DNA of 45,293 nt from a virus (taxonomy: Duplodnaviria > Heunggongvirae > Uroviricota > Caudoviricetes): the IMG/VR virus record IMGVR_UViG_2571042653_000011; one strand, given 5' to 3'. This document shows, one piece after another, positions 7,320-45,293 of this stretch. Numbering within the stretch: the stretch's first letter is position 1; every line of letters starts with the position of its first letter. The translations under genes were made by a program, and so were the position numbers. The notes beneath the pieces are model-generated. The model did no database searches, was not told the origin of the DNA, and saw nothing but the letters and a program-made list of their open reading frames with translations.

Positions 7320-7973
7320 TCAAAAATCCATTATTACTTGTTTGACAAGACCAACTATTCTGCAGTTCTCACCGCATTCAATAGTTTTATAGTTAGGATT
7401 TAGTGGGACGAGATACCTGTTCGGCCAGTCCTCAACAAATTTTTTGAGTGTCGCTTCTTGCCCACCATTGATATGGGCAACAACGATTTTTCCGTTAATA
7501 CACTCTGTATCAATAATATCTGGCTCTACGATAACGATAGAACCTTCTGGTATCGATGGTGAGCCGAGGGGATTGGTCATTGAATCACCACGGACCCGTA
7601 GTGCAAATGCCATTTCTGATACAAGGGCGGTAGTATAAACCCACTCTTCAGCATCTTCTTTCCTGACACCAGGCTCCGTCATTGTCCATGAACCCGCCTG
7701 AACCCACGAGATGAGGGGGACTTTTTTAACTGCGAATATTTCAGGTTTTAGATTTATCTTTGGTTCAGGCGAGCCTTTTCCGCTAACAAGCCACAGAGGA
7801 TCGCATTTAAGTGCGTTGGCTAGGGCTTGAAGGTTGGCTCCATTTGGTTGGTAGTCGTCCTTTTCCCATCCAGTAACCGTGACACGGTTCACACCAGTCA
7901 AATCAGCCAGTGCTTGTTGTGTCAGGTTCAGTTCTTTTCGCCTTTGGCGAATACGATCACTCATGTTCATCAT
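7320..7973 (-). CDS. CI-like prophage repressor (HTH_XRE N-terminal domain plus S24 LexA-like peptidase domain)
   Basis: N-terminal HTH (RIRQRRKELNLTQQALADLTGV) and C-terminal S24 motifs (GDSM ... KK); start is ambiguous among ATGs at 7973, 7970 and 7964 because operators overlap the 5' end. Confidence 0.85.
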   Translation of the reverse strand: MMNMSDRIRQRRKELNLTQQALADLTGVNRVTVTGWEKDDYQPNGANLQALANALKCDPLWLVSGKGSPEPKINLKPEIFAVKKVPLISWVQAGSWTMTEPGVRKEDAEEWVYTTALVSEMAFALRVRGDSMTNPLGSPSIPEGSIVIVEPDIIDTECINGKIVVAHINGGQEATLKKFVEDWPNRYLVPLNPNYKTIECGENCRIVGLVKQVIMDF

Positions 7974-10963: not shown

Positions 10964-11286
10964 CGACGTTAACTCAATGCCAGCAGCAGGTGCTGGATAT
11001 GCTGATTTCTTACCAGCAAGAGCGTGGCTTTCCGCCAACCAATCAGGAGGTGGCAACCATGCTGGGATACCGTTCGGTGAATGCAGCGGTGGAGCATCTT
11101 CGCGCACTGGAGAAAAAAGGCGTCATCACGATAAAGCGTGGCGTGGCCCGGGGGATAACGCTTCATACCGCAGTGAAGGACGACGACAGCGAAGCGGTCG
11201 GTATCATCCGCGCACTGCTTGCCGGTGAGGAGAACGCCAGGCTGCGTGCAGCCCACTGGTTACATGAGAGGGGCCTGAAAGTATGA
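10960..11286 (+). CDS. LexA N-terminal-domain-like winged-helix DNA-binding protein (no peptidase domain)
   Basis: 108 aa; N-terminus resembles the LexA DNA-binding domain (LTQCQQQVLDMLISYQQERGFPPTNQEVATMLGYRS); start overlaps the upstream stop. Confidence 0.5.
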   Translation: MTTLTQCQQQVLDMLISYQQERGFPPTNQEVATMLGYRSVNAAVEHLRALEKKGVITIKRGVARGITLHTAVKDDDSEAVGIIRALLAGEENARLRAAHWLHERGLKV

Positions 11287-15036: not shown

Positions 15037-16089
15037 ATGAAAAATACTGTAAAAATAAACAGTGTTGATTTAATCAACGCTGATTGCCTGCATTTTATTC
15101 AGTCCCTGCCTGATGATTCCATTGACCTGATTGTTACCGATCCGCCGTACTTCAAGGTGAAACCCAACGGCTGGGACAATCAGTGGAAAGGGGACGAAGA
15201 TTACCTTAAGTGGCTGGACCACTGTCTGGCCCAGTTCTGGCGGGTGTTAAAACCTGCCGGAAGCCTTTACCTGTTCTGTGGGCATCGCCTGGCATCTGAT
15301 ATTGAGATCATGATGCGTGAACGTTTCAACGTGCTTAACCATATCATCTGGGCGAAGCCGTCCGGACGTTGGAATGGGTGTAATAAAGAAAGTCTGCGCG
15401 CATATTTTCCTGCCACAGAGCGCGTTCTGTTTGCTGAACATTACCAGGGGCCATATCGCGGCAAAAGTGACGGCTATGCGGCAAAAGAAAGGGAACTCAA
15501 ACAGCACATAATGGCACCGCTGATATCGTATTTCAGGGATGCTCGTGCCGAACTGGGTATAACGGCAAAACAAATTGCCGAAGCCACAGGTAAGAAAAAT
15601 ATGGTTTCCCACTGGTTTGGTGCCAGTCAGTGGCAGTTGCCGAATGAGGCTGACTATCGGAAGTTACAGGCACTGTTTTCCCGTATAGCGGCAGAGAAGT
15701 TTCAGGAACAACAACTGGAACAACCACACCACCAGCTGGTGGCATCTTATGATTCACTGAATCGCAAATATTCTGAATTGCTGGATGAGTTTAAATCTCT
15801 CCGGCGCTATTTCTCCGTATCAGTCTCCGTGCCTTATACCGATGTCTGGATGCATAAACCCGTTCAGTTCTACCCGGGTAAACATCCGTGTGAGAAACCG
15901 GCGGATATGCTCAGGCAAATAATCAATGCCAGTAGTCGACCTGGTGATCTGGTTGCTGATTTTTTTATGGGATCCGGTTCCACAATAAAAGCAGCAATGG
16001 CGCTGGGGCGTCGGGCCTTAGGTGTTGAGCTTGAGTCAGAGCGGTTTAACCAGACAGTGAAAGAGATAAACGAGCTGGTGGGGAAATAA
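15037..16089 (+). CDS. DNA methyltransferase, beta class (N6-adenine or N4-cytosine), orphan, in the late region
   Basis: 350 aa; DPPY motif (IVTDPPYF) near the N-terminus and SAM-binding FxGxG (FFMGSGST) near the C-terminus; no cognate nuclease nearby. Confidence 0.8.
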
Positions 16090-32362: not shown

Positions 32363-32371
32363 GAGGCTCTG

Positions 32372-33070
32372 ATGCAGGATATTCCACAGGAAACACATCA
32401 TGAGACGACACGCCTCACTCAGTCAGCCCAGGCGGTGCTCTGGGAAATCGATCTGACAGAGGTCGGTGGTGAACGTTATTTTTTCTGTAATGAGCAGAAC
32501 GAAAAAGGTGAGCCGGTTACCTGGCAGGGGCGGCAGTATCAGGCATACCCCATTCAGGGGACGGGATTTGAACTGAACGGCAAGGGCAGTGCTGCCCGTC
32601 CGACACTGACGGTTTCTAACCTGCACGGAATGGTCACCGGGATGGCGGAAGACCTGCAGAGTCTGGTCGGCGGAACGGTGGTCAGGCGTAAGGTTTACGC
32701 CCGTTTTCTGGATGCGGTGAACTTCGTCAACGGAAACAGTGACGCCGATCCGGAGCAGGAGGTGATCAGCCGCTGGCGCATCGAGCAGTGCAGCGAACTG
32801 AGCGCGGTCAGTGCCTCTTTTGTACTGTCCACGCCGACGGAAACGGACGGTGCTGTTTTTCCGGGGCGCATCATGCTGGCTAATACCTGCACCTGGACCT
32901 ATCGCGGTGATGAGTGCGGTTATCACGGTCCGGCTGTCGCGGATGAATATGACCAGCCGACGTCCGATATCACGAAGGATAAATGCAGCAAATGCCTGAG
33001 TGGTTGTAAGTTTCGCAATAACGTCGGCAACTTTGGCGGCTTCCTTTCCATTAACAAACTTTCGCAGTAA
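32372..33070 (+). CDS. Minor tail protein L
   Basis: 232 aa (same as lambda gpL); Cys cluster near the C-terminus; SD AGGAGG. Confidence 0.85.
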   Translation: MQDIPQETHHETTRLTQSAQAVLWEIDLTEVGGERYFFCNEQNEKGEPVTWQGRQYQAYPIQGTGFELNGKGSAARPTLTVSNLHGMVTGMAEDLQSLVGGTVVRRKVYARFLDAVNFVNGNSDADPEQEVISRWRIEQCSELSAVSASFVLSTPTETDGAVFPGRIMLANTCTWTYRGDECGYHGPAVADEYDQPTSDITKDKCSKCLSGCKFRNNVGNFGGFLSINKLSQ

Positions 33071-33074
33071 TCCC

Positions 33075-33818
33075 ATGACACAGACAGAATCAGCGATTCT
33101 GGCGCACGCCCGGCGATGTGCGCCAGCGGAGTCGTGCGGCTTCGTGGTGAGAACGCCGGAGGGGGAAAGATATTTTCCCTGCGTGAATATCTCCGGTGAG
33201 CCGGAGGCGTATTTCCGGATGTCGCCGGAGGACTGGCTGCGGGCAGAGATGCAGGGTGAGATTGTGGCGCTGGTCCACAGCCACCCCGGTGGTCTGCCCT
33301 GGCTGAGTGAGGCCGACCGGCGGCTGCAGGTGCAGAGTGATTTGCTGTGGTGGCTGGTCTGCCGGGGTGAGATTCATAAATTCCGCTGTGTGCCGCATCT
33401 TACCGGGCGGCGCTTTGAGCACGGGGTGACGGACTGTTACACGCTGTTCCGGGATGCTTATCATCTGGCGGGGATTGAGATGCCGGATTTTCATCGCGGG
33501 GATGACTGGTGGCGTCACGGTCAGAATCTCTATCTGGATAATCTGGAGGCCACAGGGCTGTATCAGGTGCCGTTGTCAGCGGCGCAGCCGGGCGATGTGC
33601 TGCTGTGCTGTTTTGGTTCATCGGTGCCGAATCATGCCGCCATTTACTGTGGTGACGGCGAGCTGCTGCACCATATTCCTGAACAACTGAGCAAACGAGA
33701 GAGGTATACCGACAAATGGCAGCGACGCACACACTCCCTCTGGCGTCACCGGGCATGGCACGCATCTGCCTTTACGGGGATTTGCAACGATTTGGCCGCC
33801 GCATCGACCTTCGTGTGA
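33075..33818 (+). CDS. Tail assembly protein K (JAMM/MPN plus NlpC/P60-like)
   Basis: JAMM-like motif (ALVHSHPGG) and Cys-His peptidase-like segment; 3' end overlaps gene I by about 100 nt as in lambda. Confidence 0.8.
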   Translation: MTQTESAILAHARRCAPAESCGFVVRTPEGERYFPCVNISGEPEAYFRMSPEDWLRAEMQGEIVALVHSHPGGLPWLSEADRRLQVQSDLLWWLVCRGEIHKFRCVPHLTGRRFEHGVTDCYTLFRDAYHLAGIEMPDFHRGDDWWRHGQNLYLDNLEATGLYQVPLSAAQPGDVLLCCFGSSVPNHAAIYCGDGELLHHIPEQLSKRERYTDKWQRRTHSLWRHRAWHASAFTGICNDLAAASTFV

Positions 33819-34363
33819 AAACGGGGGCCGAAGCCATCCGGGCGCTGGCCACACAGCTCCCGGCGTTTCGTCAGAAACTGAATGACGGCTGGTATCAGGT
33901 GCGCATTGCCGGGCGTGATGCAGGTGAAACCGAATTATCTGCCCGTCTTAATGAGCCGCTGGCAAATGGTGCCGTGATCCATATCGTGCCGCGTCTGGCG
34001 GGAGCTAAAAGTGGCGGTGTATTTCAGGTGGTGCTGGGGGCGGCGTTGATTGCGGTGGCATGGTGGAACCCTGTGGGCTGGCTGGGTGCCGCGGCTGTAT
34101 CGGGCATGTATGCGGCAGGGGCCAGTATGATCCTGGGCGGTGTGGCGCAGATGCTGGCACCGAAAGCCAGGACGTCCACGGCAGCCAGTACAGATAACGG
34201 CAAACAGAACACCTATTTTTCCTCACTGGATAACATGGTTGCTCAGGGCAATGTTTTGCCTGTTCTGTACGGTGAAATGCGTGTGGGGTCGCGGGTGGTT
34301 TCTCAGGAGATCAGCACGGCAGACGAAGGGGATGGTGGTCAGGTTGTGGTGATTGGTCGCTGA
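33716..34363 (+). CDS. Tail assembly protein I
   Basis: 215 aa; hydrophobic Gly/Ala-rich C-terminal region; position between K and J. Confidence 0.8.
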   Translation: MAATHTLPLASPGMARICLYGDLQRFGRRIDLRVKTGAEAIRALATQLPAFRQKLNDGWYQVRIAGRDAGETELSARLNEPLANGAVIHIVPRLAGAKSGGVFQVVLGAALIAVAWWNPVGWLGAAAVSGMYAAGASMILGGVAQMLAPKARTSTAASTDNGKQNTYFSSLDNMVAQGNVLPVLYGEMRVGSRVVSQEISTADEGDGGQVVVIGR

Positions 34364-34423
34364 TGCAAAATGTTTTATGTGAAACCGCCTGCGGGCGGTT
34401 TTGTCGTTTATGGAGCATGACGA

Positions 34424-37400
34424 ATGGGTAAAGGCAGCAGTAAGGGGCATACCCCGCGCGAAGCGAAGGACAACCTGAAATCCACGCAGTTGCTGAGTGT
34501 GATCGATGCCATCAGCGAAGGGCCGATTGAAGGTCCGGTGGATGGATTAAAAAGCGTGCTGCTGAACAGTACGCCGGTGCTGGACAGTGAGGGGAATACC
34601 AATATCTCCGGCGTCACGGTGGTGTTCCGGACCGGTGAGCAGGAGCAGTCACCGCCGGAGGGATTTGAATCCTCCGGCTCCGAGACGGTGCTGGGTACGG
34701 AAGTGAAATATGACACGCCGATCACCCGGACCATCACGTCGGCAAACATCGACCGTCTGCGCTTTACCTTCGGTGTACAGGCACTGGTGGAAACCACCTC
34801 AAAGGGGGACCGGAATCCGTCGGAAGTCCGCCTGCTGGTTCAGATACAGCGTAATGGTGGCTGGGTGACGGAAAAAGACATCACCATTAAGGGCAAAACC
34901 ACCTCGCAGTATCTGGCCTCGGTGGTGGTGGATAACCTGCCGCCGCGCCCGTTCAATATCCGGATGCGCAGGATGACGCCGGACAGCACCACAGACCAGC
35001 TGCAGAACAAAACGCTCTGGTCGTCATACACCGAAATCATCGATGTGAAACAGTGCTACCCGAACACGGCACTGGTCGGCGTACAGGTGGATTCGGAGCA
35101 GTTCGGCAGCCAGCAGGTGAGCCGTAATTATCATCTGCGCGGGCGTATTCTGCAGGTGCCGTCGAACTATAACCCGCAGACTCGGCAATACAGCGGTATC
35201 TGGGACGGAACGTTTAAGCCAGCATACAGCAATAACATGGCCTGGTGTCTGTGGGATATGCTGACCCATCCACGCTACGGCATGGGGAAACGTCTTGGTG
35301 CGGCGGATGTGGACAAATGGGCGCTGTATGTCATCGGCCAGTACTGCGACCAGTCAGTGCCGGACGGCTTTGGCGGCACGGAGCCGCGCATCACCTGTAA
35401 TGCGTACCTGACCACACAGCGCAAGGCGTGGGATGTGCTCAGTGATTTCTGCTCGGCGATGCGCTGTATGCCGGTATGGAACGGGCAGACGCTGACGTTC
35501 GTGCAGGACCGACCGTCGGATAAGGTGTGGACCTATAACCGCAGTAATGTGGTGATGCCGGATGATGGCGCGCCGTTCCGCTACAGCTTCAGCGCCCTGA
35601 AGGACCGCCATAATGCCGTTGAGGTGAACTGGATTGACCCGGACAACGGCTGGGAGACGGCGACAGAGCTTGTTGAAGATACGCAGGCCATTGCCCGTTA
35701 CGGTCGTAATGTCACGAAGATGGATGCCTTTGGCTGTACCAGCCGGGGGCAGGCGCACCGCGCCGGGCTGTGGCTGATTAAAACGGAACTGCTGGAGACG
35801 CAGACCGTGGATTTCAGCGTGGGTGCTGAAGGGCTTCGCCATGTACCGGGCGATGTCATTGAAATCTGCGATGATGACTATGTCGGTATCAGCACCGGTG
35901 GTCGCGTGCTGGCGGTGAACAGCCAGACCCGGACGCTGACGCTCGACCGTGAAATCACGCTGCCATCCTCCGGTACCACGCTGATAAGCCTGGTTGACGG
36001 AAGTGGTAATCCGGTCAGCGTGGAGGTTCAGTCCGTCACCGACGGACTTAAGGTGAAAGTGAACCGGGTTCCTGACGGCGTTGCAGAATACAGTGTGTGG
36101 GGGCTGAAGCTGCCGACGCTGCGCCAGCGCCTGTTCCGCTGTGTGAGTATCCGTGAGAACGACGACGGCACGTATGCCATCACCGCCGTGCAGCATGTGC
36201 CGGAAAAAGAGGCCATCGTGGATAACGGGGCGCACTTTGACGGCGACCAGAGTGGCACGGTGAATGGTGTCACGCCGCCAGCGGTGCAGCACCTGACTGC
36301 CGAAGTCACCGCAGACAGCGGGGAATATCAGGTACTGGCGCGCTGGGACACGCCGAAGGTGGTGAAGGGCGTGAGCTTTATGCTTCGCCTGACCGTGGCA
36401 GCGGATGACGGCAGTGAGCGGCTGGTCAGCACGGCCCGGACGACGGAAACCACATACCGCTTCACGCAACTGGCGTTGGGAAACTACAGGCTGACAGTCC
36501 GGGCGGCAAATGCCTGGGGGCAGCAGGGCGATCCGGCGTCGGTATCGTTCCGGATTGCCGCACCGGCAGCACCGTCGCGGATTGAGCTGACACCGGGGTA
36601 TTTTCAGATAACCGCCACGCCGCATCTTGCCGTTTATGACCCGACGGTACAGTTTGAATTCTGGTTCTCGGAAAAGCGGATTGCGGATATCAGACAGGTT
36701 GAAACCACAGCGCGCTATCTTGGCACGGCGCTGTACTGGATAGCTGCCAGTATCAATATCAGGCCGGGCCATGATTATTATTTTTACATCCGCAGTGTGA
36801 ACACCGTTGGCAAATCGGCATTCGTGGAGGCTGTTGGCCAGCCGAGTGATGATGCATCCGGCTATCTGGATTTTTTCAAAGGAGAGATAGGGAAAACCCA
36901 TCTGGCTCAGGAGTTGTGGACGCAGATTGATAACGGTCAGCTTGCGCCTGACCTGGCGGAAATCAGAACGTCCATCACGGATGTCAGTAATGAAATCACG
37001 CAGACCGTCAATAAGAAACTGGAAGACCAGAGTGCAGCGATCCAGCAGATACAGAAGGTTCAGGTTGATACAAATAATAACCTGAACAGCATGTGGGCTG
37101 TGAAGCTGCAGCAGATGCAGGACGGACGCCTTTATATCGCGGGTATTGGTGCCGGTATTGAAAACACCCCTGACGGCATGCAGAGTCAGGTGCTGCTGGC
37201 GGCAGACAGGATTGCGATGATTAATCCTGCGAATGGCAACACAAAGCCGATGTTTGTTGGTCAGGGCGATCAGATATTCATGAACGAAGTGTTCCTGAAA
37301 TACCTGACGGCTCCCACCATTACCAGCGGCGGTAATCCTCCGGCATTTTCCCTGACACCGGACGGGCGGCTGACGGCGAAAAATGCCGATATCAGCGGTA

Positions 37401-37903
37401 ACGTGAATGCGAACTCCGGGACGCTCAACAATGTCACGATTAATCAGAACTGCCGGATTCTGGGAAAACTGTCAGCCAACCAGATTGAAGGCGATATTGT
37501 TAAAACGGTGGGCAAAGCTTTCCCCCGGGACTCCCGTGCACCGGAGCGGTGGCCATCAGGAACCATTACCGTCAGGGTTTATGACGATCAGCCGTTTGAC
37601 CGGCAAATTGTTATCCCGGCGGTGGCATTCAGTGGCGCTAAACATGAGCAAGATCATACTGATATCTACTCCTCATGCCGTCTGATAGTACGAAAAAACG
37701 GTGCTGAAATTTATAACCGAACGGCTCTGGATAATACGCTGATATATACGGGTGTTATTGATATGCCTGCAGGCAGTGGTGTCATGACACTGGAATTTTC
37801 TGTATCGGCATGGCTGGTAAATGGCTGGTATCCCACAGCAAGTATCAGCGATTTGCTGGTTGTGGTGATGAAGAAAGCCACCGCAGGCATCAGTATCAGC
37901 TGA
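34424..37903 (+). CDS. Tail tip/host specificity protein J
   Basis: 1159 aa; N-terminus [18 protein letters not shown] typical of lambda gpJ family (recall). Confidence 0.9.
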
Positions 37904-37922
37904 ATTTTATAACCCCAATATG

Positions 37923-37946
37923 GGCGTCAGAAATGACGCCTTTTTT
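37923..37946 (+). terminator. Intrinsic terminator downstream of J
   Basis: GGCGTCA-GAAA-TGACGCC followed by T6. Confidence 0.6.
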
Positions 37947-37970
37947 ATTGCAGAAAAGCGAGAGGTAATT

Positions 37971-38570
37971 ATGCGTAAATTATGTGCTGTTATTCTGTCC
38001 GCAGTAGTCTGGCTGGTTGCCGCTGGTACGCCAGCGAGCGCAGCAGAGCATCAGTCCACACTAAGCGCCGGGTATCTTCAGACCCATACTGATATGCCAG
38101 GCAGTGATGACCTGAAGGGCATTAACGTGAAATACCGTTATGAATTTACGGACACGCTGGGGCTGGTGACGTCATTCAGTTATGCCAATGCCAAAGATGA
38201 GCAAAAAACGCATTACAGCGATACCCGCTGGCATGAAGATTCAGTGCGTAACCGCTGGTTCAGCATGATGGCGGGGCCATCTGTACGCGTGAATGAATGG
38301 TTCAGTGCTTATGCGATGGCAGGTGTGGCTTACAGCCGTGTGTCGACCTTCTCCGGGGATTATCTCCGCGTAACTGACAACAAGGGGAAAACGCACGATG
38401 TGCTGACCGGAAGTGATGACGATCGCCACAGCAACACATCTCTGGCGTGGGGAGCTGGCGTGCAGTTTAACCCGACCGAATCCGTGGCCATTGATATTGC
38501 TTATGAAGGCTCCGGCAGTGGCGACTGGCGCACTGACGGTTTCATCGTGGGTGTCGGTTATAAATTCTGA
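37971..38570 (+). CDS. lom: Outer-membrane beta-barrel protein Lom (Ail/Lom family)
   Basis: About 199 aa with signal peptide and C-terminal aromatic residue (GYKF) typical of small outer-membrane beta-barrels; sits between J and the tail fibre as in lambda; flanked by terminators. Confidence 0.8.
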   Translation: MRKLCAVILSAVVWLVAAGTPASAAEHQSTLSAGYLQTHTDMPGSDDLKGINVKYRYEFTDTLGLVTSFSYANAKDEQKTHYSDTRWHEDSVRNRWFSMMAGPSVRVNEWFSAYAMAGVAYSRVSTFSGDYLRVTDNKGKTHDVLTGSDDDRHSNTSLAWGAGVQFNPTESVAIDIAYEGSGSGDWRTDGFIVGVGYKF

Positions 38571-38596
38571 TTAGCCAGGTAACACAGTGTTATGAC

Positions 38597-38623
38597 AGCC
38601 CGCCGGTTCAGGCGGGCTTTTTT
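38597..38623 (+). terminator. Intrinsic terminator downstream of lom
   Basis: GCCCGCC-GGTTCA-GGCGGGC followed by T6. Confidence 0.6.
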
Positions 38624-38634
38624 GTGGAGTGGAT

Positions 38635-40983
38635 ATGGCAGCAGTAAAAATCTCAGGTGTGCTGAAAGATGGTGCGGGAAAACCAATACAGAACTGCACT
38701 ATTCAACTGAAGGCAAAGCGTAACAGCACCACGGTACTGGTGAACACGGTGGCCTCTGAAAATCCTGATGAAGCCGGGCGTTACAGCATGGATGTTGAGT
38801 ATGGCCAGTACAGCGTCACCCTGCTGGTTGAAGGTTTTCCGCCTTCACATGCCGGGACCATTACCGTCTATGAAGGCTCCAGACCAGGTACGCTGAATGA
38901 TTTTCTCGGTGCCATGACGGAAGATGATGTCATGCCGGAGGCATTGCGCCGTTTTGAGGCAATGGTGGAAGAAGCGGCACGCAACGCCGAAGCCGCCTCT
39001 CAGAGCGCAGCGGCGGCAAAGAAATCCGAAACTGCAGCGGCATCATCGAAGAACGCGGCGAAAACGTCAGAAACGAATGCAGCTAATAGTGCACAGGCGG
39101 CAGCGACCTCAAAGACTGCATCGGCAAACTCCGCGACAGCAGCCAAAAAATCAGAAACCAACGCGAAAAATAGCGAGACAGCCGCAAAGACGAGCGAAAC
39201 CAACGCAAAGTCCAGCCAGACGGCAGCGATAACCAGCGAAACGAATGCTAAAGCCAGTGAAACTGCGGCAAAAAACAGCCAGGTTGCAGCAGCCGAAAGC
39301 GAGAGCGCGGCAGCCGATTCTGCGACTTCAGCAGCTGGATCAGCAACTGCTGCGGCTAACAGTCAGAAAGCAGCGAAGACGAGTGAAACTAACGCAAAGT
39401 CCAGCCAGACGGCAGCGAAGACCAGCGAAACGAATGCCAAAGCCAGCGAAACTGCGGCGAAAAACAGTCAGGATGCGGCGGCCCAAAGCGAGAGTGCTGC
39501 AGCTGGTTCTGCAAGTGCGGCGGCTTCTTCTGCCACTGCATCAGCCAACAGTCAAAAAGCTGCAAAAACCAGTGAAACCAACGCAAAGGCGAGCGAGACT
39601 GCGGCGACTAACTCGGCAAAAGCATCCGCTGCAAGCCAGATGGCTGCAAAAGCAAGTGAAGACGCAGCGAGAGAGTATGCAAGCCAGGCAGCAGAGCCGT
39701 ATAAATATGTCTTACAGCCACTGCCTGATGTGTGGATACCGTTTAACGATTCACTGGATATGCTTGCTGGCTTTTCGCCTGGTTATAAGCAAATAACTGT
39801 AGGTGATGATGTTATTAAAATGCCATCCGATAAGGTTGTTAGCTTCAAACGCGCATCAGGTGCAACATACATTAATAAATCAGGTGTATTAACCGTTGCT
39901 GAAGTTGACGAACCGCGATTTGAACGAGAAGGTTTGCTGATTGAAGGACAGAGAACAAACTATTTCAGAAATTCAAATACACCAGAAGCATGGAATAACA
40001 CGGGTAGTGTGTCTGTTGAGTCGTTCGACAGTGATAATGGGTTTAACTATGGAAGGATAACTGTTATTAATGAAAATCCGACAGCACAAGGATATCAGGC
40101 AATTGCTGTAAACACGAATGATGCTTACACCTGCCCGGCAGGTTCTTATACGACGATATCGTGTCTGACGAAAAGTGATAATTCCCGGTGTCGTGCAAGG
40201 TTCGGAAAAATGTCTGATAATGGTGCGTTTGTTTTTCATTCAGATGCAGCTCTGGATCCTGTTACGGGAAATGTTGTTCATGGAAATAATGTGACGGTGA
40301 CGGCAGAAAGAGTCGGTGAATGGTGGTTGTTTACCGCCACTCTTTTTGCAGATGAGGAAATGATAATCAGCTCAAGATTTGAAATCCTGGCGATGCCTGG
40401 AATCAGTATTATCCCCAATGGCTCTACGTTAGATATTGCGATGCCTCAGGCGGAGATTGGGTCGTACAGGACGTCATTTATCATTACTGAAGGGGCTCCT
40501 GGCACTCGCTCCAGCGACATGGTGACAATACCTGTAAGAAACAATATTCACCGATTACCATTCAGTGCTCTTGTTGAAGTTAATAAAAACTGGGATATCC
40601 CTCCCAGCAAATCACCATTAATCTTTAATGTTAAAGATTATCAGGAAAATGGTCTGTTCACGCATGGATTCCGTGGTAATAATTTCTCTGATGCCGGTTC
40701 TCCTTTTATTTCTATGGGAGGGTGTAATAAATATGTGGCAACAACCCAGAGGAAAATCATTTCAGGCTTACGTTGTGGCGCTGATGGAGATGTTCAGGCC
40801 GTATGTAATGGTGAATTATCTGTTGCGGCAAAAACAACATGGACTTCAATTGTTCCACGGGCAGTATTGCGAATTGGAGGGCAGGGCACTAATGGGGAGT
40901 ATCATCTTTTTGGTCATATCCGTAATCTGCGTATCTGGCATAAAGAATTAACTGATGCGCAAATGGGGGAGAGTATTAAATGA
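38635..40983 (+). CDS. Side tail fibre protein (Stf-like) with repeat-rich shaft and divergent C-terminal domain
   Basis: N-terminus MAAVKISGVLKDGAGKPIQNCTIQLKAK resembles lambda Stf (recall); central Ala/Ser/Thr repeats; the C-terminal third is AT-rich by eye. Confidence 0.85.
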   Translation: MAAVKISGVLKDGAGKPIQNCTIQLKAKRNSTTVLVNTVASENPDEAGRYSMDVEYGQYSVTLLVEGFPPSHAGTITVYEGSRPGTLNDFLGAMTEDDVMPEALRRFEAMVEEAARNAEAASQSAAAAKKSETAAASSKNAAKTSETNAANSAQAAATSKTASANSATAAKKSETNAKNSETAAKTSETNAKSSQTAAITSETNAKASETAAKNSQVAAAESESAAADSATSAAGSATAAANSQKAAKTSETNAKSSQTAAKTSETNAKASETAAKNSQDAAAQSESAAAGSASAAASSATASANSQKAAKTSETNAKASETAATNSAKASAASQMAAKASEDAAREYASQAAEPYKYVLQPLPDVWIPFNDSLDMLAGFSPGYKQITVGDDVIKMPSDKVVSFKRASGATYINKSGVLTVAEVDEPRFEREGLLIEGQRTNYFRNSNTPEAWNNTGSVSVESFDSDNGFNYGRITVINENPTAQGYQAIAVNTNDAYTCPAGSYTTISCLTKSDNSRCRARFGKMSDNGAFVFHSDAALDPVTGNVVHGNNVTVTAERVGEWWLFTATLFADEEMIISSRFEILAMPGISIIPNGSTLDIAMPQAEIGSYRTSFIITEGAPGTRSSDMVTIPVRNNIHRLPFSALVEVNKNWDIPPSKSPLIFNVKDYQENGLFTHGFRGNNFSDAGSPFISMGGCNKYVATTQRKIISGLRCGADGDVQAVCNGELSVAAKTTWTSIVPRAVLRIGGQGTNGEYHLFGHIRNLRIWHKELTDAQMGESIK
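39050..39620. repeat. Tandem coding repeats inside the tail fibre gene
   Basis: A ~180-bp unit (about 39190-39365) recurs at about 39370-39545 with high identity, built from shorter ~21-bp sub-repeats encoding AAKTSETNAKSSQT-like heptads. Confidence 0.6.
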
Positions 40984-41261
40984 AAGATTTAACACTCAAA
41001 TTTGCAGACAGGGCCGACTTTTCGGCCTTTATGGAGAGTATTGGCTATTATGATGACGAGTCGATGCAGGATGATATTCTTATTGACGTGATAGGTAACG
41101 TGTACAAAGAAAGCGGAGAACTGACTGAAGATGGCGAACCGGTATGTGTTAAGGAAGACGGATATTTTGTAAACGTGCGCATCATTAATGATGCAAAAAA
41201 ATCGTCAATATTCGATAAATACGCGATTGTTGTTGAGCATCAACTTCGTGGCTGGATGTGA
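40980..41261 (+). CDS. Hypothetical protein downstream of the tail fibre (possible fibre-associated factor)
   Basis: 93 aa; acidic; ATG overlaps the tail fibre stop; no family recognised. Confidence 0.4.
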   Translation: MKDLTLKFADRADFSAFMESIGYYDDESMQDDILIDVIGNVYKESGELTEDGEPVCVKEDGYFVNVRIINDAKKSSIFDKYAIVVEHQLRGWM

Positions 41262-41270
41262 GGGAGACAA

Positions 41271-41975
41271 ATGGCTACATCGACAGTAATTCCAGGAGAC
41301 ATCACCACGTTAAAGGGAGATGTCAGTAAAGCCAAGGAAGATATTTCCTCAATTAACGGAAAAGTATCAACGCTTCAGACTGATATGACCAGTGCAAAGC
41401 AGGATATCAGCACCAGATACACAAAAACTGAAGTTGATAATAAGCTGAAAAACAAAGTGGAAGTGAACGATCTGGAAAGTGGTCGTTATGGTGGAGATTT
41501 TTACCCGCTGACTGGTCGTGAAGCGTTTTATTTGTGGGGATTGGGCACGACTACAGCGGCGGCAAACCTTTATCTTAATCCTGACCCCGCAATTTCGTCT
41601 GTACTGCGGTCCACATCGTCTATCCGCTATAAACATTCAGTAGAGACGATAGATTCGGAGCACGCCGATCTCATTTTCAAGATGCGCCCTGTGTGGTACA
41701 GGTCGCAATGCGAAAATGACAGGCGCGATTGGGGATTCTATGGATTGATTGCCGAGGAAGTAGGAGAAATTGCCCCTCAGTTTGTTCACTGGCGACCAGC
41801 TAACGAGAATGATGCTCCTGAAGCTATTTCCAGCAATGGCCTTGTTGCCGAAGGTGTAATGTACGAACGTCTGGTTGTTCCACTGATTCACCATATCCAG
41901 AAACTGACTGAAAGAGTTGATGAACTTGAGTCAGAATTAAAGTTGTTATCAACTTCCCGAAGCGATATCGGATAA
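41271..41975 (+). CDS. Tail-fibre-like protein with C-terminal intramolecular chaperone (peptidase S74-like) domain
   Basis: 234 aa; N-terminal coiled-coil; C-terminal segment WGFYGLIAEEVGEIAPQFV ... YERLVVPLIHHIQKL fits the S74 chaperone pattern (recall). Confidence 0.55.
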   Translation: MATSTVIPGDITTLKGDVSKAKEDISSINGKVSTLQTDMTSAKQDISTRYTKTEVDNKLKNKVEVNDLESGRYGGDFYPLTGREAFYLWGLGTTTAAANLYLNPDPAISSVLRSTSSIRYKHSVETIDSEHADLIFKMRPVWYRSQCENDRRDWGFYGLIAEEVGEIAPQFVHWRPANENDAPEAISSNGLVAEGVMYERLVVPLIHHIQKLTERVDELESELKLLSTSRSDIG

Positions 41976-41985
41976 AGGAGGAGTA

Positions 41986-42273
41986 ATGGATATAACACCT
42001 TTCCTTCATGCACTTTGTGCTGTGGCTGCACAGGTACTGATTGGCCTTTTTACCGGAAACTGGGCTTACGGGGCGATAGCCGGTTGTACGTTCTTCATTG
42101 CGCGTGAACACACCCAGGCAGAATATCGCTGGATTGAAATGTTCGGACATGGCAAGCGTATGAATATGCCGTGGTGGGGCGGTTTTGATCCGCGCGTGTG
42201 GGATGTAGCAAGCCTGATGGATTTTGCTGTGCCGGTGATGGCGTGTCTGCTGGTCTGGCTGTTTATCCGTTAA
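41986..42273 (+). CDS. Small membrane protein (95 aa), unknown function
   Basis: Consensus SD AAGGAGG before the ATG; predicted hydrophobic helices at both ends. Confidence 0.45.
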   Translation: MDITPFLHALCAVAAQVLIGLFTGNWAYGAIAGCTFFIAREHTQAEYRWIEMFGHGKRMNMPWWGGFDPRVWDVASLMDFAVPVMACLLVWLFIR

Positions 42274-42383
42274 ACATAAAAAGCCGCAGCAACTTGTCAT
42301 GGCAGAATACTGCGGCTGGCTGGTGAACTTCCGATAGTGCGAGTATTGAATGATTTCCAGCCGTTATCGATTTTACGTATTAA

Positions 42384-42632
42384 TTAATGAACAAACCACT
42401 CGTCAGCAGACTCCCAGGTATCTTTCAGAGTTTCCTGAACAAAAGTTTTAGCTGAATCTTTATCGGCGGTGCGCGTAACAGAAAGGCCATCGTTGCTGGT
42501 GGCTTTTACGATCACCTCTACATCGTCATAACGCTTACTGATGCGTCGAGTTAATTCTTCCTTTAACGCATCCACAGCACCGTTTGGCATTTTAGTCATT
42601 TTCTCTTTGGCTATGCAGATCTCAATACGCAT
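42384..42632 (-). CDS. dinI: DinI-like DNA damage-inducible protein
   Basis: 82 aa; resembles E. coli DinI (MRIE...IAK ... [14 protein letters not shown]) from memory; tandem LexA boxes immediately upstream. Confidence 0.8.
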
Positions 42633-42645
42633 AAAAATCCCTCTA

Positions 42646-42693
42646 TACTGTGTTTGTATACAGTATTATTTTTAACTGTATGAATAAACAGTG
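42646..42693 (-). promoter_or_regulatory. Two tandem LexA (SOS) boxes in the dinI-like promoter
   Basis: TACTGTGTTTGTATACAGTA (42646-42665) and CTGTATGAATAAACAG (42676-42691), both CTGT-N8-ACAG; minus-strand TTGACA overlaps the integrase stop. Confidence 0.7.
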
Positions 42694-43791
42694 TCAAGAG
42701 GTCTTATTTCTGCTCCTTTGGAGTTCTTCAAAACGATTATGTAAAGATTTTGGATACAGTTCGGTATATACCTGCCATAGCACGTTTAATGAACGATGCC
42801 CTGTAACCTGGGCGACTTCCTCAATACTAAAACCAGCCTCAAATAAGCGACTTGCCCCTTCTCTACGCAAATCATGGTATCGCAGATCTTTAATACCTAA
42901 TTTGCTTCTTACCCTCTGAAATCCTGCGGTAACAGAAGTGCTGTTGTATGGAAAAATGAATTCAGATTTTTTGGGTTGTCGTTGGACGATATCCCAGGCT
43001 TCCCCAAGCAAGGCCACTTTCATATGGTTACCTTCCTTTTTACGTGGATCTTTCCTGTCTCTTACTAGTATAGATTTTTGTTCCTGGTCGAGATCTTCCC
43101 ATCGTAACCGGCATACTTCTCCGATTCGCATACAGGACCACACAGAAAATTTGAGGATATCAACGAACGGAATTTTTGAGCATTTATGAGTAGATCGTTG
43201 TTGAAGGCCTTCAATGAGCATGTCTAGTTCATCAGATGCTGGTCTACGATTACGACGATTTGATTTACCAATTAAACCAAGTTTAAGTAGATATGGACGA
43301 GCGGCTTTTGCTGGGTTTGATGTGTAATTAATTCCGTATACAGGTTTGGCTGCATCCAGAACACTGCCAAGATAACTAACATCGTGGCTAACAGTAGCTG
43401 GACCTGCACCGGCGTTGTTTCTCAACCTGCAATGTTCTATTACGTCATTTTCTGTTAATTCAGATAGTCTGATCGCAGAAATGTCACTATCCATAAGTAG
43501 TTCCAGCACATATCTTTTAGTACGGCCTGCTTTACCTCCGGCATTTGGGTCATTTAAATATTTGCGTAGTAAGTCACGGACTGTAAGCCCGTCAACAGCA
43601 TTTGATGATGGAATGCCATGTAGATCTAATTCCATCACTTTCTGTGTGCCCCATGTTTTGGCATGAGCATGTTTAGGGAATGTTTTGCTTTCCCTGTAAG
43701 TGATAACCCCTTTTTCTTTGATAATCACATTACAGCGATAGCGTGGTGTGCCATCGGATTTTAGTCGTTTCTCTATGTTATAGTACGCCAT
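42694..43791 (-). CDS. Tyrosine-type integrase (dusA-associated)
   Basis: 365 aa; C-terminal catalytic region with R...H.LR...Y pattern (HDLRREGASR ... LWQVY); adjacent and divergent to dusA. Confidence 0.9.
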   Translation of the reverse strand: MAYYNIEKRLKSDGTPRYRCNVIIKEKGVITYRESKTFPKHAHAKTWGTQKVMELDLHGIPSSNAVDGLTVRDLLRKYLNDPNAGGKAGRTKRYVLELLMDSDISAIRLSELTENDVIEHCRLRNNAGAGPATVSHDVSYLGSVLDAAKPVYGINYTSNPAKAARPYLLKLGLIGKSNRRNRRPASDELDMLIEGLQQRSTHKCSKIPFVDILKFSVWSCMRIGEVCRLRWEDLDQEQKSILVRDRKDPRKKEGNHMKVALLGEAWDIVQRQPKKSEFIFPYNSTSVTAGFQRVRSKLGIKDLRYHDLRREGASRLFEAGFSIEEVAQVTGHRSLNVLWQVYTELYPKSLHNRFEELQRSRNKTS

Positions 43792-43810
43792 TACACGACC
43801 TCGTTATTTC

Positions 43811-43846
43811 GGGTTCCCATAAAACGTGGGAACCTGTGCGGGAACC
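43811..43846. repeat. GGGAACC repeats between the integrase and dusA starts (candidate recombination/regulatory sites)
   Basis: Inverted pair GGGTTCCC (43811-43818) and GGGAACC (43827-43833), plus a direct copy GGGAACC (43840-43846). Confidence 0.4.
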
Positions 43847-43879
43847 TAACGCGAGAAAAATAGCCTGAAATGTTCAAAA

Positions 43880-44917
43880 ATGCACGATAATCATGAAACA
43901 CAAAAAATTAATCAAACCAGCGTGATGCCTGAAAAAAATGGTGTTTACTGGAATTCTCGGTTTAGCATTGCTCCTATGCTCGACTGGACGGACAGACATT
44001 GCCGCTATTTCTTGCGTCTGCTTTCCCGCAATACGTTGCTGTATACCGAAATGGTGACCACAGGGGCGATTATTCACGGTAAAGGTGATTATCTGGCGTA
44101 CAGTGAAGAAGAACATCCGGTAGCATTGCAACTGGGCGGTAGCGATCCGGCGGCGCTGGCGCAGTGTGCAAAGCTGGCAGAAGCGCGCGGATATGATGAG
44201 ATCAACCTGAATGTCGGCTGCCCGTCTGACCGGGTGCAGAACGGCATGTTTGGGGCGTGTCTGATGGGTAATGCGCAGCTGGTTGCCGACTGCGTGAAAG
44301 CGATGCGCGATGTGGTGTCGATTCCGGTGACGGTGAAAACGCGTATTGGCATCGACGACCAGGACAGCTATGAATTTCTCTGCGATTTCATCAACACCGT
44401 TTCCGGCAAAGGCGAGTGTGAGATGTTCATCATCCATGCTCGTAAAGCCTGGCTTTCGGGGTTAAGCCCGAAAGAAAACCGTGAAATCCCGCCGCTCGAT
44501 TATCCGCGTGTGTATCAACTGAAGCGTGACTTTCCGCATCTGACAATGTCGATTAACGGTGGTATCAAGTCGCTGGAAGAGGCTAAAGCGCATTTGCAAC
44601 ATATGGATGGCGTGATGGTCGGGCGCGAAGCGTATCAAAATCCGGGTATTCTGGCGGCGGTAGACCGAGAGATCTTTGGTTCCTCGGATACCGATGCCGA
44701 TCCGGTGGCGGTAGTGCGCGCCATGTATCCGTACATTGAGCGTGAACTCAGCCAGGGGACGTATCTTGGCCATATTACCCGGCATATGTTGGGCTTGTTC
44801 CAGGGTATTCCTGGCGCGCGGCAGTGGCGGCGTTATTTAAGTGAAAATGCCCATAAAGCGGGTGCAGACATTAATGTGCTGGAACACGCGCTCAAACTGG
44901 TGGCGGATAAGCGTTAA
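43880..44917 (+). CDS. dusA: tRNA-dihydrouridine synthase A
   Basis: 345 aa; flavin-dependent Dus TIM-barrel features with catalytic Cys (NLNVGCPS); the first ~30 codons are likely supplied by the prophage end. Confidence 0.9.
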
Positions 44918-44999
44918 CTTTTCACCAAAAAGTAGTCAAATTCACCACGCCCTGCGCACCGTCGCGGGGCGTTTTGCTGTTAAATCAATAGATTATTTT

Positions 45000-45014
45000 T
45001 GGCATGATTCTTGT
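45000..45014 (+). promoter_or_regulatory. Sigma-54-type promoter candidate upstream of pspG
   Basis: TGGCAT-N5-TTGT resembles the -24/-12 consensus TGGCAC-N5-TTGC, about 37 nt upstream of the pspG ATG; the -12 element is imperfect. Confidence 0.35.
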
Positions 45015-45050
45015 AATGCCTGCAAGAGATTTCATATTTGGGAGAGCATC

Positions 45051-45293
45051 ATGCTGGAACTACTTTTTGTGATTGGCTTTTTTGTCATGCTGATGGTCAC
45101 CGGCGTTTCGTTGCTGGGCATTATCGCCGCGCTGGTTGTGGCGACGGCCATTATGTTCCTCGGCGGTATGCTGGCATTGATGATTAAGTTGCTGCCGTGG
45201 TTACTACTGGCGGTTGCGGTGGTGTGGGTTATTAAGGCGATTAAAGCACCAAAAGTGCCGAAATATCAGCGTTATGACCGCTGGCGTTACTAA
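45051..45293 (+). CDS. pspG: Phage shock protein G
   Basis: 80-aa small membrane protein (MLELLFVIGFFVMLMV ... KYQRYDRWRY), recognised from memory; ends at the window edge with a stop codon. Confidence 0.85.
   Translation: MLELLFVIGFFVMLMVTGVSLLGIIAALVVATAIMFLGGMLALMIKLLPWLLLAVAVVWVIKAIKAPKVPKYQRYDRWRY

What the first reader, a model, noticed from the sequence alone, without database searches (positions are those of the whole stretch)
42384..42700. Prophage-borne DinI-like gene behind two tandem LexA boxes, abutting the integrase 3' end
Two CTGT-N8-ACAG boxes lie within and just downstream of a TTGACA-containing promoter for the dinI-like gene, and the -35 overlaps the integrase stop codon. 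DinI homologues modulate RecA coprotease activity, so an SOS-induced prophage DinI could tune repressor cleavage and induction.
Basis: partly seen in the sequence, partly recalled or inferred. Interest (0 to 1): 0.5.

Follow-up and report, generated by a model that had tools for sequence, protein, structure and literature searches.

The report
SOS-controlled DinI gene cassette in prophage
A small prophage gene for a DinI-type RecA-binding protein sits behind a promoter carrying two strong binding sites for the host DNA-damage repressor LexA; it is real and well conserved, but it is an ordinary, very common cassette of a kind already known in Salmonella prophages.

Summary
ORF 42384-42632(-) encodes an 82-aa DinI-family protein (Pfam E=1e-19; fold matches 1GHH/7YWA). 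All eight residues shown to contact RecA are identical or conservatively replaced. Two perfect CTGT-N8-ACAG boxes (42674-42693, 42646-42665) score like proven LexA operators and bracket the -10 of a TTGACA promoter. The -35 contains the integrase stop codon.

Both boxes are kept in all 64 related loci, in at least five unrelated upstream contexts. Homology breaks at the -35 on one side and about 3-8 nt after the stop codon on the other. There a conserved lambdoid stem-loop begins that also occurs without dinI, for example in lambda's b region. The unit is therefore a ~315-bp SOS-controlled moron, present in at least 1512 of 5426 complete E. coli genomes.

LexA-controlled prophage dinI genes are already documented in the Gifsy prophages. 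The idea that phage DinI limits induction is already published as speculation. The two-operator layout is the only apparently undescribed detail.

An effect on repressor cleavage is plausible, because the prophage repressor is an S24 autocleavable type. It is untested, and Gifsy dinI deletions had no phenotype.

Side finds are a LexA-DNA-binding-domain-only gene and a third LexA box at a methyltransferase gene.

The parts
42384..42632 (-). dinI-like coding sequence (82 aa)
   Evidence: Pfam DinI E=1.2e-19. Sequence match to PDB 1GHH E=8e-13. AlphaFold model pLDDT 77; Foldseek top hits are 1GHH and 7YWA at probability 1.0 and TM 0.65-0.68. dN/dS is 0.10-0.23 against homologues of 60-70% identity.
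42639..42643 (-). Shine-Dalgarno GAGGG, 6 nt upstream of the ATG
   Evidence: Read directly from the sequence. Conserved in related loci.
42646..42665 (-). Proximal LexA operator TACTGTATACAAACACAGTA. It lies just downstream of the -10 and covers the predicted transcription start.
   Evidence: Matrix score 23.1 bits. Found at -33 relative to the ATG in all 64 related loci. The CTG and CAG arms are invariant across the 27 distinct sequences.
42668..42674 (-). -10 region TAAAAAT. It can be read as AAAAAT with an 18-nt spacer or TAAAAA with a 17-nt spacer.
   Evidence: Consensus scan gave 10 of 12 positions. Nearly invariant in 27 distinct upstream variants.
42674..42693 (-). Distal LexA operator CACTGTTTATTCATACAGTT. 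It fills the spacer between the -35 and the -10.
   Evidence: Matrix score 23.6 bits. Found at -61 in all 64 loci. Variation is concentrated in the central AT-rich spacer.
42692..42697 (-). -35 hexamer TTGACA. It contains the integrase stop codon TGA (42696-42694) and marks the left edge of the cassette.
   Evidence: Homology between the different upstream contexts breaks immediately 5' of this hexamer.
42276..42380 (-). 3' UTR. It is a conserved lambdoid element of about 65 nt plus a GC-rich stem-loop (arms at 42316-42310 and 42289-42283), followed here by a T-run at 42282-42276 that would act as the dinI terminator.
   Evidence: RNA fold -31.1 kcal/mol, z=-2.8. The same element occurs without dinI in lambda at 24190-24261, after int in HK633, and at other prophage ends. 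It is therefore pre-existing and not part of the inserted gene.
42694..43791 (-). Tyrosine integrase of a prophage inserted at the 5' end of dusA. It lies directly upstream of the cassette on the same strand.
   Evidence: Pfam Phage_integrase E=1e-20. dusA lies at 43880-44917.
7320..7973 (-). Prophage CI-type repressor (HTH_3 plus Peptidase_S24, with VQAGSW, GDSM and LKKF motifs). It is the candidate RecA*-dependent substrate.
   Evidence: Pfam Peptidase_S24 E=4e-25 and HTH_3 E=1e-15. Motifs read from the translation.

Best explanation
This is a compact (~315 bp) SOS-controlled moron, a self-contained extra gene in a prophage.

A sigma-70 promoter has its -10 sandwiched between two high-affinity LexA operators. 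It drives an 82-aa DinI-family protein. The unit sits between the integrase stop codon and a pre-existing conserved lambdoid stem-loop that serves as its terminator.

Proposed mechanism, step by step:
- In the lysogen, host LexA occupies both operators. One fills the -35/-10 spacer and the other covers the transcription start. The gene is off, and this is independent of the prophage repressor. (Inferred from sequence.)
- After DNA damage, RecA* drives LexA autocleavage and the promoter fires. Two strong operators must both be vacant, so firing probably comes only at deep or sustained SOS. (Inferred.)
- The protein binds the groove of RecA* filaments through the same hydrophobic pocket and acidic patch as E. 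coli DinI. (Contact residues shown conserved; binding itself inferred.)
- It thereby changes RecA* filament stability and competes with S24 substrates for the same site. Those substrates are UmuD, LexA and the prophage's own CI-type repressor. (Established for host DinI; inferred here.)
- The net result is a modulation of SOS output and of the timing or commitment of prophage induction. The sign of the effect is unknown.

My estimates for the individual steps are: LexA-repressed DinI homologue about 0.9; binds RecA* about 0.75; measurably alters induction of this prophage about 0.35.
For: DinI identity:
- Pfam DinI match above the curated cut-off, sequence match to PDB 1GHH, and fold match to 1GHH and 7YWA.
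- The E. coli DinI residues that contact RecA are L13, L21, W71, W77 and F78 plus E24, E69 and D76 (PMC9926225). In the alignment they correspond to M15, L23, W73, W79, F80, E26, D71 and E78.
- The protein is under purifying selection, dN/dS 0.10-0.23.

Operators:
- Perfect CTGT-N8-ACAG boxes, 3 in the window against 0.57 expected.
- They score 23.1 and 23.6 bits, against 22.6 for K-12 dinI and 24.0 for the Gifsy-2 operator, which lies in a segment shown to be required for induction. The next-best site in the window scores 11.0.
- They overlap a promoter that matches 10 of 12 consensus positions.

Conservation:
- Both boxes are present in 64 of 64 loci, across at least five unrelated upstream contexts.
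- PhiR12_5 differs at only 4 of 68 promoter-operator positions, while synonymous divergence in the coding sequence is dS=0.8.

Modularity:
- The left edge is at the -35.
- The right edge is about 3-8 nt after the stop codon, where an element shared with lambda, HK633 and other phages begins.

Precedent:
- Gifsy-1, -2 and -3 dinI homologues sit behind a LexA box, and DinI accumulates after mitomycin C (PMC3121763).

Substrate:
- The prophage repressor carries a Peptidase_S24 domain.
Against: - No expression, LexA-binding or RecA-binding data exist for this cassette.
- The promoter and transcription start are predictions only.
- The matrix was built from recalled operators.
- Most of the 64 related loci encode 98-100% identical proteins, so they are not independent samples.
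- In the Gifsy prophages, non-polar dinI deletions did not change induction levels or rates (PMC3121763).
- Host dinI is already present in E. coli, so the added effect of one more copy may be small.
- The box centres are 28 bp apart, about 2.7 helical turns. That does not favour cooperative binding between the two LexA dimers.
Confidence: 0.6

Rival explanations
1. Same molecular mechanism, but the beneficiary is the host. On this reading the cassette is a lysogenic-conversion gene. It adds DinI dosage during SOS to restrain UmuD cleavage and mutagenesis, or to stabilise RecA filaments for repair. This improves lysogen survival rather than tuning induction.
For: - The cassette is controlled by host LexA rather than by the phage repressor.
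- It is a free-standing moron at the prophage end.
- It occurs in up to 8 places per genome, which suggests dosage effects.
- Gifsy dinI deletions did not alter induction (PMC3121763).
- Citrobacter rodentium prophage annotators list a DinI-like gene as fitness cargo (PMC6456863).
Against: - Every E. coli already has chromosomal dinI with its own LexA box.
- No survival or mutagenesis data exist for the prophage copies.
- A RecA* groove binder cannot avoid also affecting the resident S24 repressor.
Confidence: 0.3
2. The boxes also serve the phage's own uncleavable LexA-like protein, the 108-aa product of 10960-11286 that consists of a LexA DNA-binding domain only. On this reading, once early genes are expressed, that protein re-occupies SOS boxes after host LexA has been destroyed. 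It would then shut off or re-time dinI, the methyltransferase and perhaps host SOS genes.
For: - Pfam LexA_DNA_bind E=2.6e-19 over the full domain, with no S24 domain.
- PDB LexA match at E of about 1e-15. The recognition helix is nearly identical: RSVNAAVEHL against RSPNAAEEHL.
- The window holds exactly three strong boxes, all at moron-type genes.
- It co-occurs with the dinI cassette in cdtI, mEp460, 2H10 and the Stx2c phages.
- Phage GIL01 sets a precedent. Its gp6 is a truncated LexA homologue acting at a promoter that also carries tandem LexA boxes (PMC6182141).
Against: - Co-occurrence is loose. Many Stx1a and Stx2a phages have dinI without this gene, and SfII, SfIV and SfV have the gene without dinI.
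- In LexA, dimerisation resides in the missing C-terminal domain, so tight box binding is uncertain.
- No experimental data were found.
Confidence: 0.15
3. The DinI-like protein is an antirepressor, like Tum of phage 186 or as part of a Gifsy-type dinI-antirepressor operon. It would inactivate the prophage repressor by binding it.
For: Tum is LexA-controlled and its C-terminal half is DinI-like. In the Gifsy prophages dinI leads a LexA-regulated operon that encodes an antirepressor (PMC3121763).
Against: - The protein is 82 aa and the DinI domain spans residues 16-80, so there is no extra domain.
- No second ORF lies between the stop codon and the conserved stem-loop.
- In PSP3 the antirepressor activity maps to the non-DinI half (PMC3121763).
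- This prophage's repressor is of the self-cleaving S24 type, which does not need an antirepressor.
Confidence: 0.03
4. The transcript acts mainly as RNA. On this reading a fragment from the 3' end works as a small regulatory RNA, like Klebsiella DinR, which is cut from dinI mRNA and represses ftsZ.
For: - The 3' UTR is highly conserved and structured, z=-2.8.
- DinR sets a precedent (PMC10907235).
Against: - The conserved 3' element is not specific to dinI. It occurs in lambda's b region and after unrelated integrases.
- There is no Rfam match.
- The coding sequence is under clear purifying selection at the protein level.
- DinR depends on a Klebsiella-specific insert.
Confidence: 0.05
5. The boxes are chance palindromes or relics, and the gene is silent or constitutive.
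For: None beyond the absence of direct expression data.
Against: - Chance expectation is 0.57 boxes per 45 kb.
- The two boxes sit exactly on the core promoter of a gene whose host and Gifsy homologues are LexA-regulated.
- The CTG and CAG arms are invariant across contexts, while the spacers vary.
Confidence: 0.02

Closest known systems
Chromosomal dinI of E. coli K-12 (b1061; structures 1GHH and 7YWA)
   Same: - Small single-domain DinI protein with the same fold.
- All eight RecA-contact residues are identical or conservative.
- The promoter is repressed through a LexA box.
   Different: - About 40% protein identity.
- The host gene has one operator, ACCTGTATAAATAACCAGTA at -39, whereas this cassette has two operators bracketing the -10.
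- The cassette is mobile, prophage-borne and often present in several copies.
dinI homologues of Salmonella prophages Gifsy-1, -2 and -3 (Lemire et al. 2011, PMC3121763)
   Same: - Prophage-borne DinI homologue behind a LexA operator.
- Independent of the phage repressor.
- Accumulates after mitomycin C.
   Different: - The Gifsy gene has a single box overlapping the -10.
- It is the first gene of an operon that continues into an antirepressor (gfoA or gftA) and irsA.
- It lies in the nin region, and Gifsy repressors are not cleaved.
- Here the gene is monocistronic, sits at the int/att end, has about 42% identity to the Gifsy gene, and the prophage repressor is of the S24 type.
Tum of coliphage 186, and the split tum genes of PSP3 and Fels-2
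   Same: A LexA-controlled phage gene containing a DinI-like segment.
   Different: Tum is 146 aa, and an N-terminal half supplies the antirepressor activity. The protein here is the DinI domain alone.
Promoters with two LexA operators: GIL01 P3 (PMC6182141); also E. coli lexA, recN and colicin promoters (from general knowledge, not checked here)
   Same: Two LexA boxes within one core promoter. This arrangement is generally associated with tight repression and delayed induction.
   Different: - Here the boxes are separated by 8 bp with the -10 between them, and their centres are 28 bp apart.
- No co-repressor such as GIL01 gp7 is known here.
Phage morons (self-contained extra genes in lambdoid phages)
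   Same: - It has its own promoter.
- It is inserted between elements that are adjacent in related phages. In HK633 the integrase is followed directly by the conserved stem-loop.
- It is predicted to be expressed from the repressed prophage.
   Different: It uses a pre-existing downstream stem-loop as terminator rather than carrying its own. Its control is by host LexA.

Membership tests
DinI family (Pfam PF06183) | Sequence matches the family profile above the curated threshold | tested here: met
   E=1.2e-19, 70.8 bits against a cut-off of 24.2, covering profile positions 1-63 of 63. phmmer against 1GHH gives E=7.9e-13.
DinI family (Pfam PF06183) | Single-domain alpha/beta fold of about 80 aa, as in the solved DinI structures | tested here: met
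   The AlphaFold model has pLDDT 77. The Foldseek top hits are 1GHH and 7YWA at probability 1.00 and TM 0.65-0.68. The next hits have E above 0.04. The model was built from a single sequence, so confidence is moderate.
DinI family (Pfam PF06183) | RecA-contact residues are present: hydrophobic pocket L13, L21, W71, W77 and F78, and acidic patch E24, E69 and D76 | tested here: met
   The residue list comes from PMC9926225. In the alignment they map to M15, L23, W73, W79 and F80, and to E26, D71 and E78. Five are identical and three are conservative.
DinI family (Pfam PF06183) | Binds RecA nucleoprotein filaments and modulates coprotease activity | not testable with these tools
   This needs biochemistry.
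LexA (SOS) regulon member | Operator matches the CTGT-N8-ACAG consensus with a score in the range of proven operators | tested here: met
   The boxes score 23.1 and 23.6 bits. My set of recalled operators spans 13-27 bits. K-12 dinI scores 22.6 and Gifsy-2 scores 24.0 on real sequence.
LexA (SOS) regulon member | The operator overlaps the core promoter | tested here: met
   The distal box fills the -35/-10 spacer. The proximal box starts 2 nt after the -10 and covers the predicted start site. The promoter is predicted and has not been mapped.
LexA (SOS) regulon member | The operator is conserved in diverged relatives beyond neutral expectation | tested here: met
   Both boxes are present in 64 of 64 loci. 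PhiR12_5 has 4 changes in 68 nt against dS=0.8 in the coding sequence. BP-4795 keeps the layout but its distal box is weakened.
LexA (SOS) regulon member | LexA binding and induction by DNA damage | not testable with these tools
   No expression or ChIP data for this cassette were found in the searchable literature.
LexA-controlled antirepressor module (186 Tum; Gifsy dinI-gfoA/gftA) | An antirepressor domain fused to the DinI-like gene, or an antirepressor ORF co-transcribed with it | tested here: not met
   The protein is 82 aa and the DinI domain spans residues 16-80. There is no ORF between the stop codon and the conserved stem-loop.
LexA-controlled antirepressor module (186 Tum; Gifsy dinI-gfoA/gftA) | The cognate prophage repressor lacks a self-cleavage domain | tested here: not met
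   The repressor at 7320-7973 has Peptidase_S24 at E=3.7e-25.
Phage moron | A self-contained transcription unit inserted between elements that are adjacent in related phages | tested here: met
   The cassette edges are at the -35 and about 3-8 nt after the stop codon. HK633, lambda and other prophages carry the flanking stem-loop element without dinI. The terminator is shared, not carried by the insert.
DinR-type sRNA derived from the dinI mRNA 3' end | A stable Hfq-bound 3' fragment with a seed that pairs to a target such as ftsZ | tested here: inconclusive
   There is no Rfam match. The 3' UTR is structured but is a general lambdoid element. No target search was done.

The most novel reading that the evidence does not exclude
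The prophage may run its own 'SOS-box regulon'. Host LexA would keep three box-bearing promoters silent in the lysogen: the two boxes at dinI and one at the methyltransferase gene between Q and the lysis genes. After induction, the phage's uncleavable protein consisting of a LexA DNA-binding domain only (10960-11286) would take over these boxes and possibly the host's SOS boxes. That would re-time phage DinI and switch the host SOS response off or over to phage control while RecA* is still active.
Probability: 0.12. Interest if true: 0.65.

Novelty: new member of a known kind. Interest (0 to 1): 0.27.

Why it matters
The cassette is present in at least a quarter of complete E. coli genomes, often in several copies. 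It is also carried by many Shiga-toxin, cdt and other lambdoid phages. If the protein shifts the RecA* threshold for repressor cleavage, it would influence toxin-phage induction by SOS-inducing antibiotics and cross-talk between co-resident prophages. As it stands, it is a well-annotated gene family with a predictable regulator. The practical value of this analysis is a precise map of the unit (promoter, two operators, edges) for anyone who wants to delete or reporter-tag it.

Tried and rejected
- I first assumed the whole window was colinear with E. coli FDAARGOS_497 and used that record's gene names. A blastn check showed that only 32369-45293 is colinear. The window does not contain host lexA or dinF. 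I re-annotated the left part from strain BEN5202 and with Pfam.
- The simple terminator scan found nothing downstream of dinI because the loop exceeds its limit. RNA folding does show the stem-loop and T-run.
- Rfam gave no match in 41900-43000.
- Literature searches for SOS boxes at Stx-phage dinI, for 'DinI-like', and for phage LexA-domain proteins in lambdoids found no experimental work on this cassette.
- A preprint reporting 'loss of lexA and dinI' together with Stx prophages may have been detecting the phage-borne homologues. It gives chromosomal coordinates, so I did not use it as evidence.
- I looked for an upstream terminator insulating the cassette in a non-integrase context (L031). 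The scan was inconclusive, so I make no claim.
- The Tum-like antirepressor and DinR-like sRNA readings were considered and ranked low, for the reasons given under the rival explanations.
Full report
**What the window is**

The right third of the window (32369-45293) is 98.9-100% identical to E. coli chromosomes such as FDAARGOS_497. The left part matches a mosaic relative in strain BEN5202. The window is essentially one lambdoid prophage inserted at the 5' end of dusA. It contains:
- a Panacea-domain gene at the left end;
- a leftward early operon;
- a CI-type repressor at 7320-7973(-), with a P22-Cro-like gene and a CII-like gene;
- replication and nin-type genes, Q, lysis genes, a lambda-type head and tail, J, lom and tail fibres;
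- then, on the minus strand, the dinI-like gene (42384-42632) and a tyrosine integrase (42694-43791);
- followed by host dusA (43880-44917) and pspG.

An early assumption that the window began in host lexA was wrong and was corrected.

**Checking the observation**

- The 82-aa ORF has an ATG and a GAGGG ribosome-binding site.
- Read on the minus strand, the upstream sequence is TTGACA-CTGTTTATTCATACAGTT-AAAAAT-AA-TACTGTATACAAACACAGTA-TAGAGGGATTTTT-ATG.
- The consensus scan calls TTGACA, an 18-nt spacer and AAAAAT a 10-of-12 promoter.
- CTGT-N8-ACAG occurs three times in 45 kb against 0.57 expected by shuffling. Two of the three are here.
- On a LexA weight matrix the two 20-mers score 23.6 and 23.1 bits. 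The best non-box site in the window scores 11.0, and the best site in 30 shuffled windows scores 17.5.
- I built the matrix from operators recalled from memory, so I checked it on real sequence. It finds the single K-12 dinI operator at 22.6 bits as the only site in 7 kb. It also finds the Gifsy-2 dinI operator at 24.0 bits. Replacing the Gifsy-2 segment containing that box abolished mitomycin C induction (PMC3121763).
- The integrase stop codon TGA (42696-42694) lies inside the -35 hexamer (42697-42692).
- The distal box (42674-42693) begins at the next base.

**The protein**
- It matches Pfam DinI at E=1.2e-19 over the whole profile.
- It aligns end to end with E. coli DinI, PDB 1GHH and 7YWA.
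- A single-sequence AlphaFold model (pLDDT 77) retrieves only DinI structures with significance, at TM 0.65-0.68.
- The cryo-EM study of RecA-DinI names the contact residues: a hydrophobic pocket (L13, L21, W71, W77, F78) that receives RecA F203, and an acidic patch (E24, E69, D76) (PMC9926225).
- In the alignment these positions are M, L, W, W, F and E, D, E. All are identical or conservative.
- Against homologues of 60-70% identity, dN/dS is 0.10-0.23.

It is a real, constrained DinI-family gene.

**Conservation of the control region**

I examined 64 loci from IMG/VR and genomes that have at least 150 nt upstream.
- Every one keeps both boxes, at -61 and -33 from the ATG.
- Across 27 distinct sequences, the CTG and CAG arms and the TAAAAAT -10 region are essentially invariant. 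Changes cluster in the central spacers of the boxes.
- These loci mostly encode 98-100% identical proteins, so they are weak as independent samples. Two observations are stronger.
- First, the sequence upstream of the -35 falls into at least five unrelated classes: the integrase 3' end as here, putative att-arm repeats, and others. Homology breaks immediately 5' of TTGACA.
- Second, phage PhiR12_5, whose coding sequence differs at dS=0.8, differs at only 4 of 68 promoter-operator positions.
- BP-4795 (60% identity) keeps the layout, with a weakened distal box.
- More distant homologues have a single box: Klebsiella P18-100 and Kp4884-1, Gifsy-2 and K-12 dinI.

The two-operator layout is therefore a feature of the E. 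coli lambdoid clade.

**Edges of the unit**
- Downstream of the stop codon lies a conserved stretch of about 65 nt and a GC-rich stem-loop, followed here by TTTTTAT.
- The element is not specific to dinI. It occurs at 85-95% identity in lambda's b region (24190-24261), 71 nt after the unrelated integrase of HK633, after intS in one E. coli strain, and at the attR side of a lambda-site prophage in E24377A.
- Aligned, the shared element starts at about ATAYGTAAAATCG, 3-8 nt after the dinI stop. Its stem shows compensatory changes.
- Relative to the HK633-type arrangement, about 315 bp (the -35 through the stop codon) has been dropped between the integrase or att end and this pre-existing element.
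- The integrase reading frame now ends in the TGA supplied by the cassette's -35.
- This is the anatomy of a moron. The abutment with the integrase is a consequence of the insertion site, not a functional coupling that I can demonstrate.

**How common it is**
- The 427-nt unit matches in 3379 of 5426 complete E. coli genomes. Some of those are matches to the stem-loop element alone.
- 1512 genomes have at least 80% coverage, with up to 8 places per genome.
- The protein is encoded in 133 phage records, including many Stx1a, Stx2a and Stx2c phages, cdtI and mEp460, usually annotated as DinI.

**Likely mechanism**
- Shown by sequence: two operators of proven-operator quality occupy the -35/-10 spacer and the start-site region. 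Bound LexA would therefore exclude RNA polymerase.
- Inferred: the gene is silent in the undamaged lysogen regardless of the phage repressor. It is derepressed when RecA* has depleted LexA.
- Inferred: because two strong sites must both be empty, derepression probably comes later and more steeply than for host dinI.
- The box centres are 28 bp apart, which does not suggest cooperativity. The effect would be multiplicative occupancy.
- With no terminator visible between int and the promoter, bound LexA may also block read-through from int. This is inference only.
- The protein should occupy the RecA* groove as DinI does.
- The prophage repressor carries an S24 self-cleavage domain with VQAGSW, GDSM and LKKF motifs.
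- An effect on its cleavage is therefore mechanistically reasonable. Its sign is open: it could stabilise the filament or compete for the groove.

**Comparison with what is known**
- LexA-controlled prophage dinI homologues were characterised in Gifsy-1, -2 and -3. They have one LexA box, dinI is the first gene of an operon that continues into an antirepressor and irsA, and DinI accumulates after mitomycin C. Non-polar dinI deletions there had no effect on induction (PMC3121763).
- The same paper explains that 186 Tum is an antirepressor fused to a DinI-like half, and that these halves are separate genes in PSP3.
- Here there is no second domain or ORF, and the repressor is cleavable, so the antirepressor reading fails two defining features.
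- The proposal that a Stx-phage DinI would limit induction has already been printed as speculation (PMC8456039).
- Klebsiella dinI mRNA yields the sRNA DinR (PMC10907235). Here the 3' UTR is a generic lambdoid element and has no Rfam match, so I rank an RNA role low.
- I found no experimental paper on this E. coli cassette or its two operators.

**Other findings that bear on the boxes**
- The third strong LexA box in the window (15045-15064, 23.4 bits) overlaps codons 3-9 of an N6/N4 DNA methyltransferase gene (15037-16089) that lies between Q and the holin gene.
- The exact 32-mer spanning its start recurs in more than 120 viral contigs and in phage SfV.
- The nin region encodes a 108-aa protein (10960-11286) that is a LexA DNA-binding domain without the S24 domain. 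Its recognition helix is nearly identical to LexA's.
- That gene is found in 61 phage records and overlaps only partly with the dinI carriers.
- The only precedent I found is GIL01 gp6, a truncated LexA homologue acting at a promoter that also carries tandem LexA boxes (PMC6182141).
- This raises the possibility that the boxes are shared between host LexA and a phage LexA mimic. I give that low probability.

**Verdict**

SOS control is strongly predicted. The proposed effect on induction is plausible but unproven and not new as an idea. The unit is a very common SOS-controlled moron of a known kind. Its two-operator promoter and exact boundaries are the only additions.

Noticed in passing
window 10960-11286 (+): A 108-aa ORF consists of a LexA DNA-binding domain only. 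It matches Pfam LexA_DNA_bind at E=2.6e-19 and LexA structures at E of about 1e-15. The recognition helix is RSVNAAVEHL against LexA's RSPNAAEEHL. It keeps an 'LLAGE' motif aligned to LexA's cleavage site 'VAAGE' but has no S24 domain. It sits in a dam / LexA-like / rusA module and occurs in 61 phage records (cdtI, mEp460, Stx2c phages, SfII, SfIV, SfV). No study of it was found.
   Followed up: partly
window 15045-15064, within ORF 15037-16089 (+): A third strong LexA box (TACTGTAAAAATAAACAGTG, 23.4 bits) overlaps codons 3-9 of an N6/N4 DNA methyltransferase gene located between Q and the holin gene. The exact 32-mer is in more than 120 IMG/VR contigs and in phage SfV orf48. It suggests a second LexA-controlled moron.
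   Followed up: partly
window about 42283-42380 (-): A conserved element of about 65 nt plus a stem-loop with compensatory changes lies downstream of dinI. It also occurs without dinI in lambda's b region (J02459 24190-24261), after int in HK633, after intS, and at other prophage ends. A T-run follows it only in some contexts. NCBI's PGAP annotation pipeline calls the opposite strand a 'capsid protein' pseudogene fragment (42307-42387). Its function is unknown.
   Followed up: partly
window 1-573 (+) and the next ORF, about 603-989 (+): A Panacea-domain gene with a small partner ORF lies at the prophage left end, next to attL. It may be a toxin-antitoxin or defence pair. The annotation comes from homologous E. 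coli records.
   Followed up: no
window 42694-44917: The prophage is integrated at the 5' end of dusA. The integrase start (43791) lies 88 bp from the dusA start (43880), on the opposite strand. A related genome carries a dusA 5' fragment at the other prophage end (L001 4536-4640).
   Followed up: no
window 39176-39607 (+), within tail-fibre ORF 38629-40983: There are internal direct repeats of about 243 bp at 82% identity. They encode an Ala/Ser/Thr-rich repetitive segment of the side tail fibre.
   Followed up: no
L089 (phage BP-4795), dinI at 248-496: In this 60%-identical homologue the RecA-contact tryptophan (W71 in E. coli DinI) is replaced by Arg, and the distal LexA box is degenerate (TACAAC arm). 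It may be a decaying or diverging copy.
   Followed up: no
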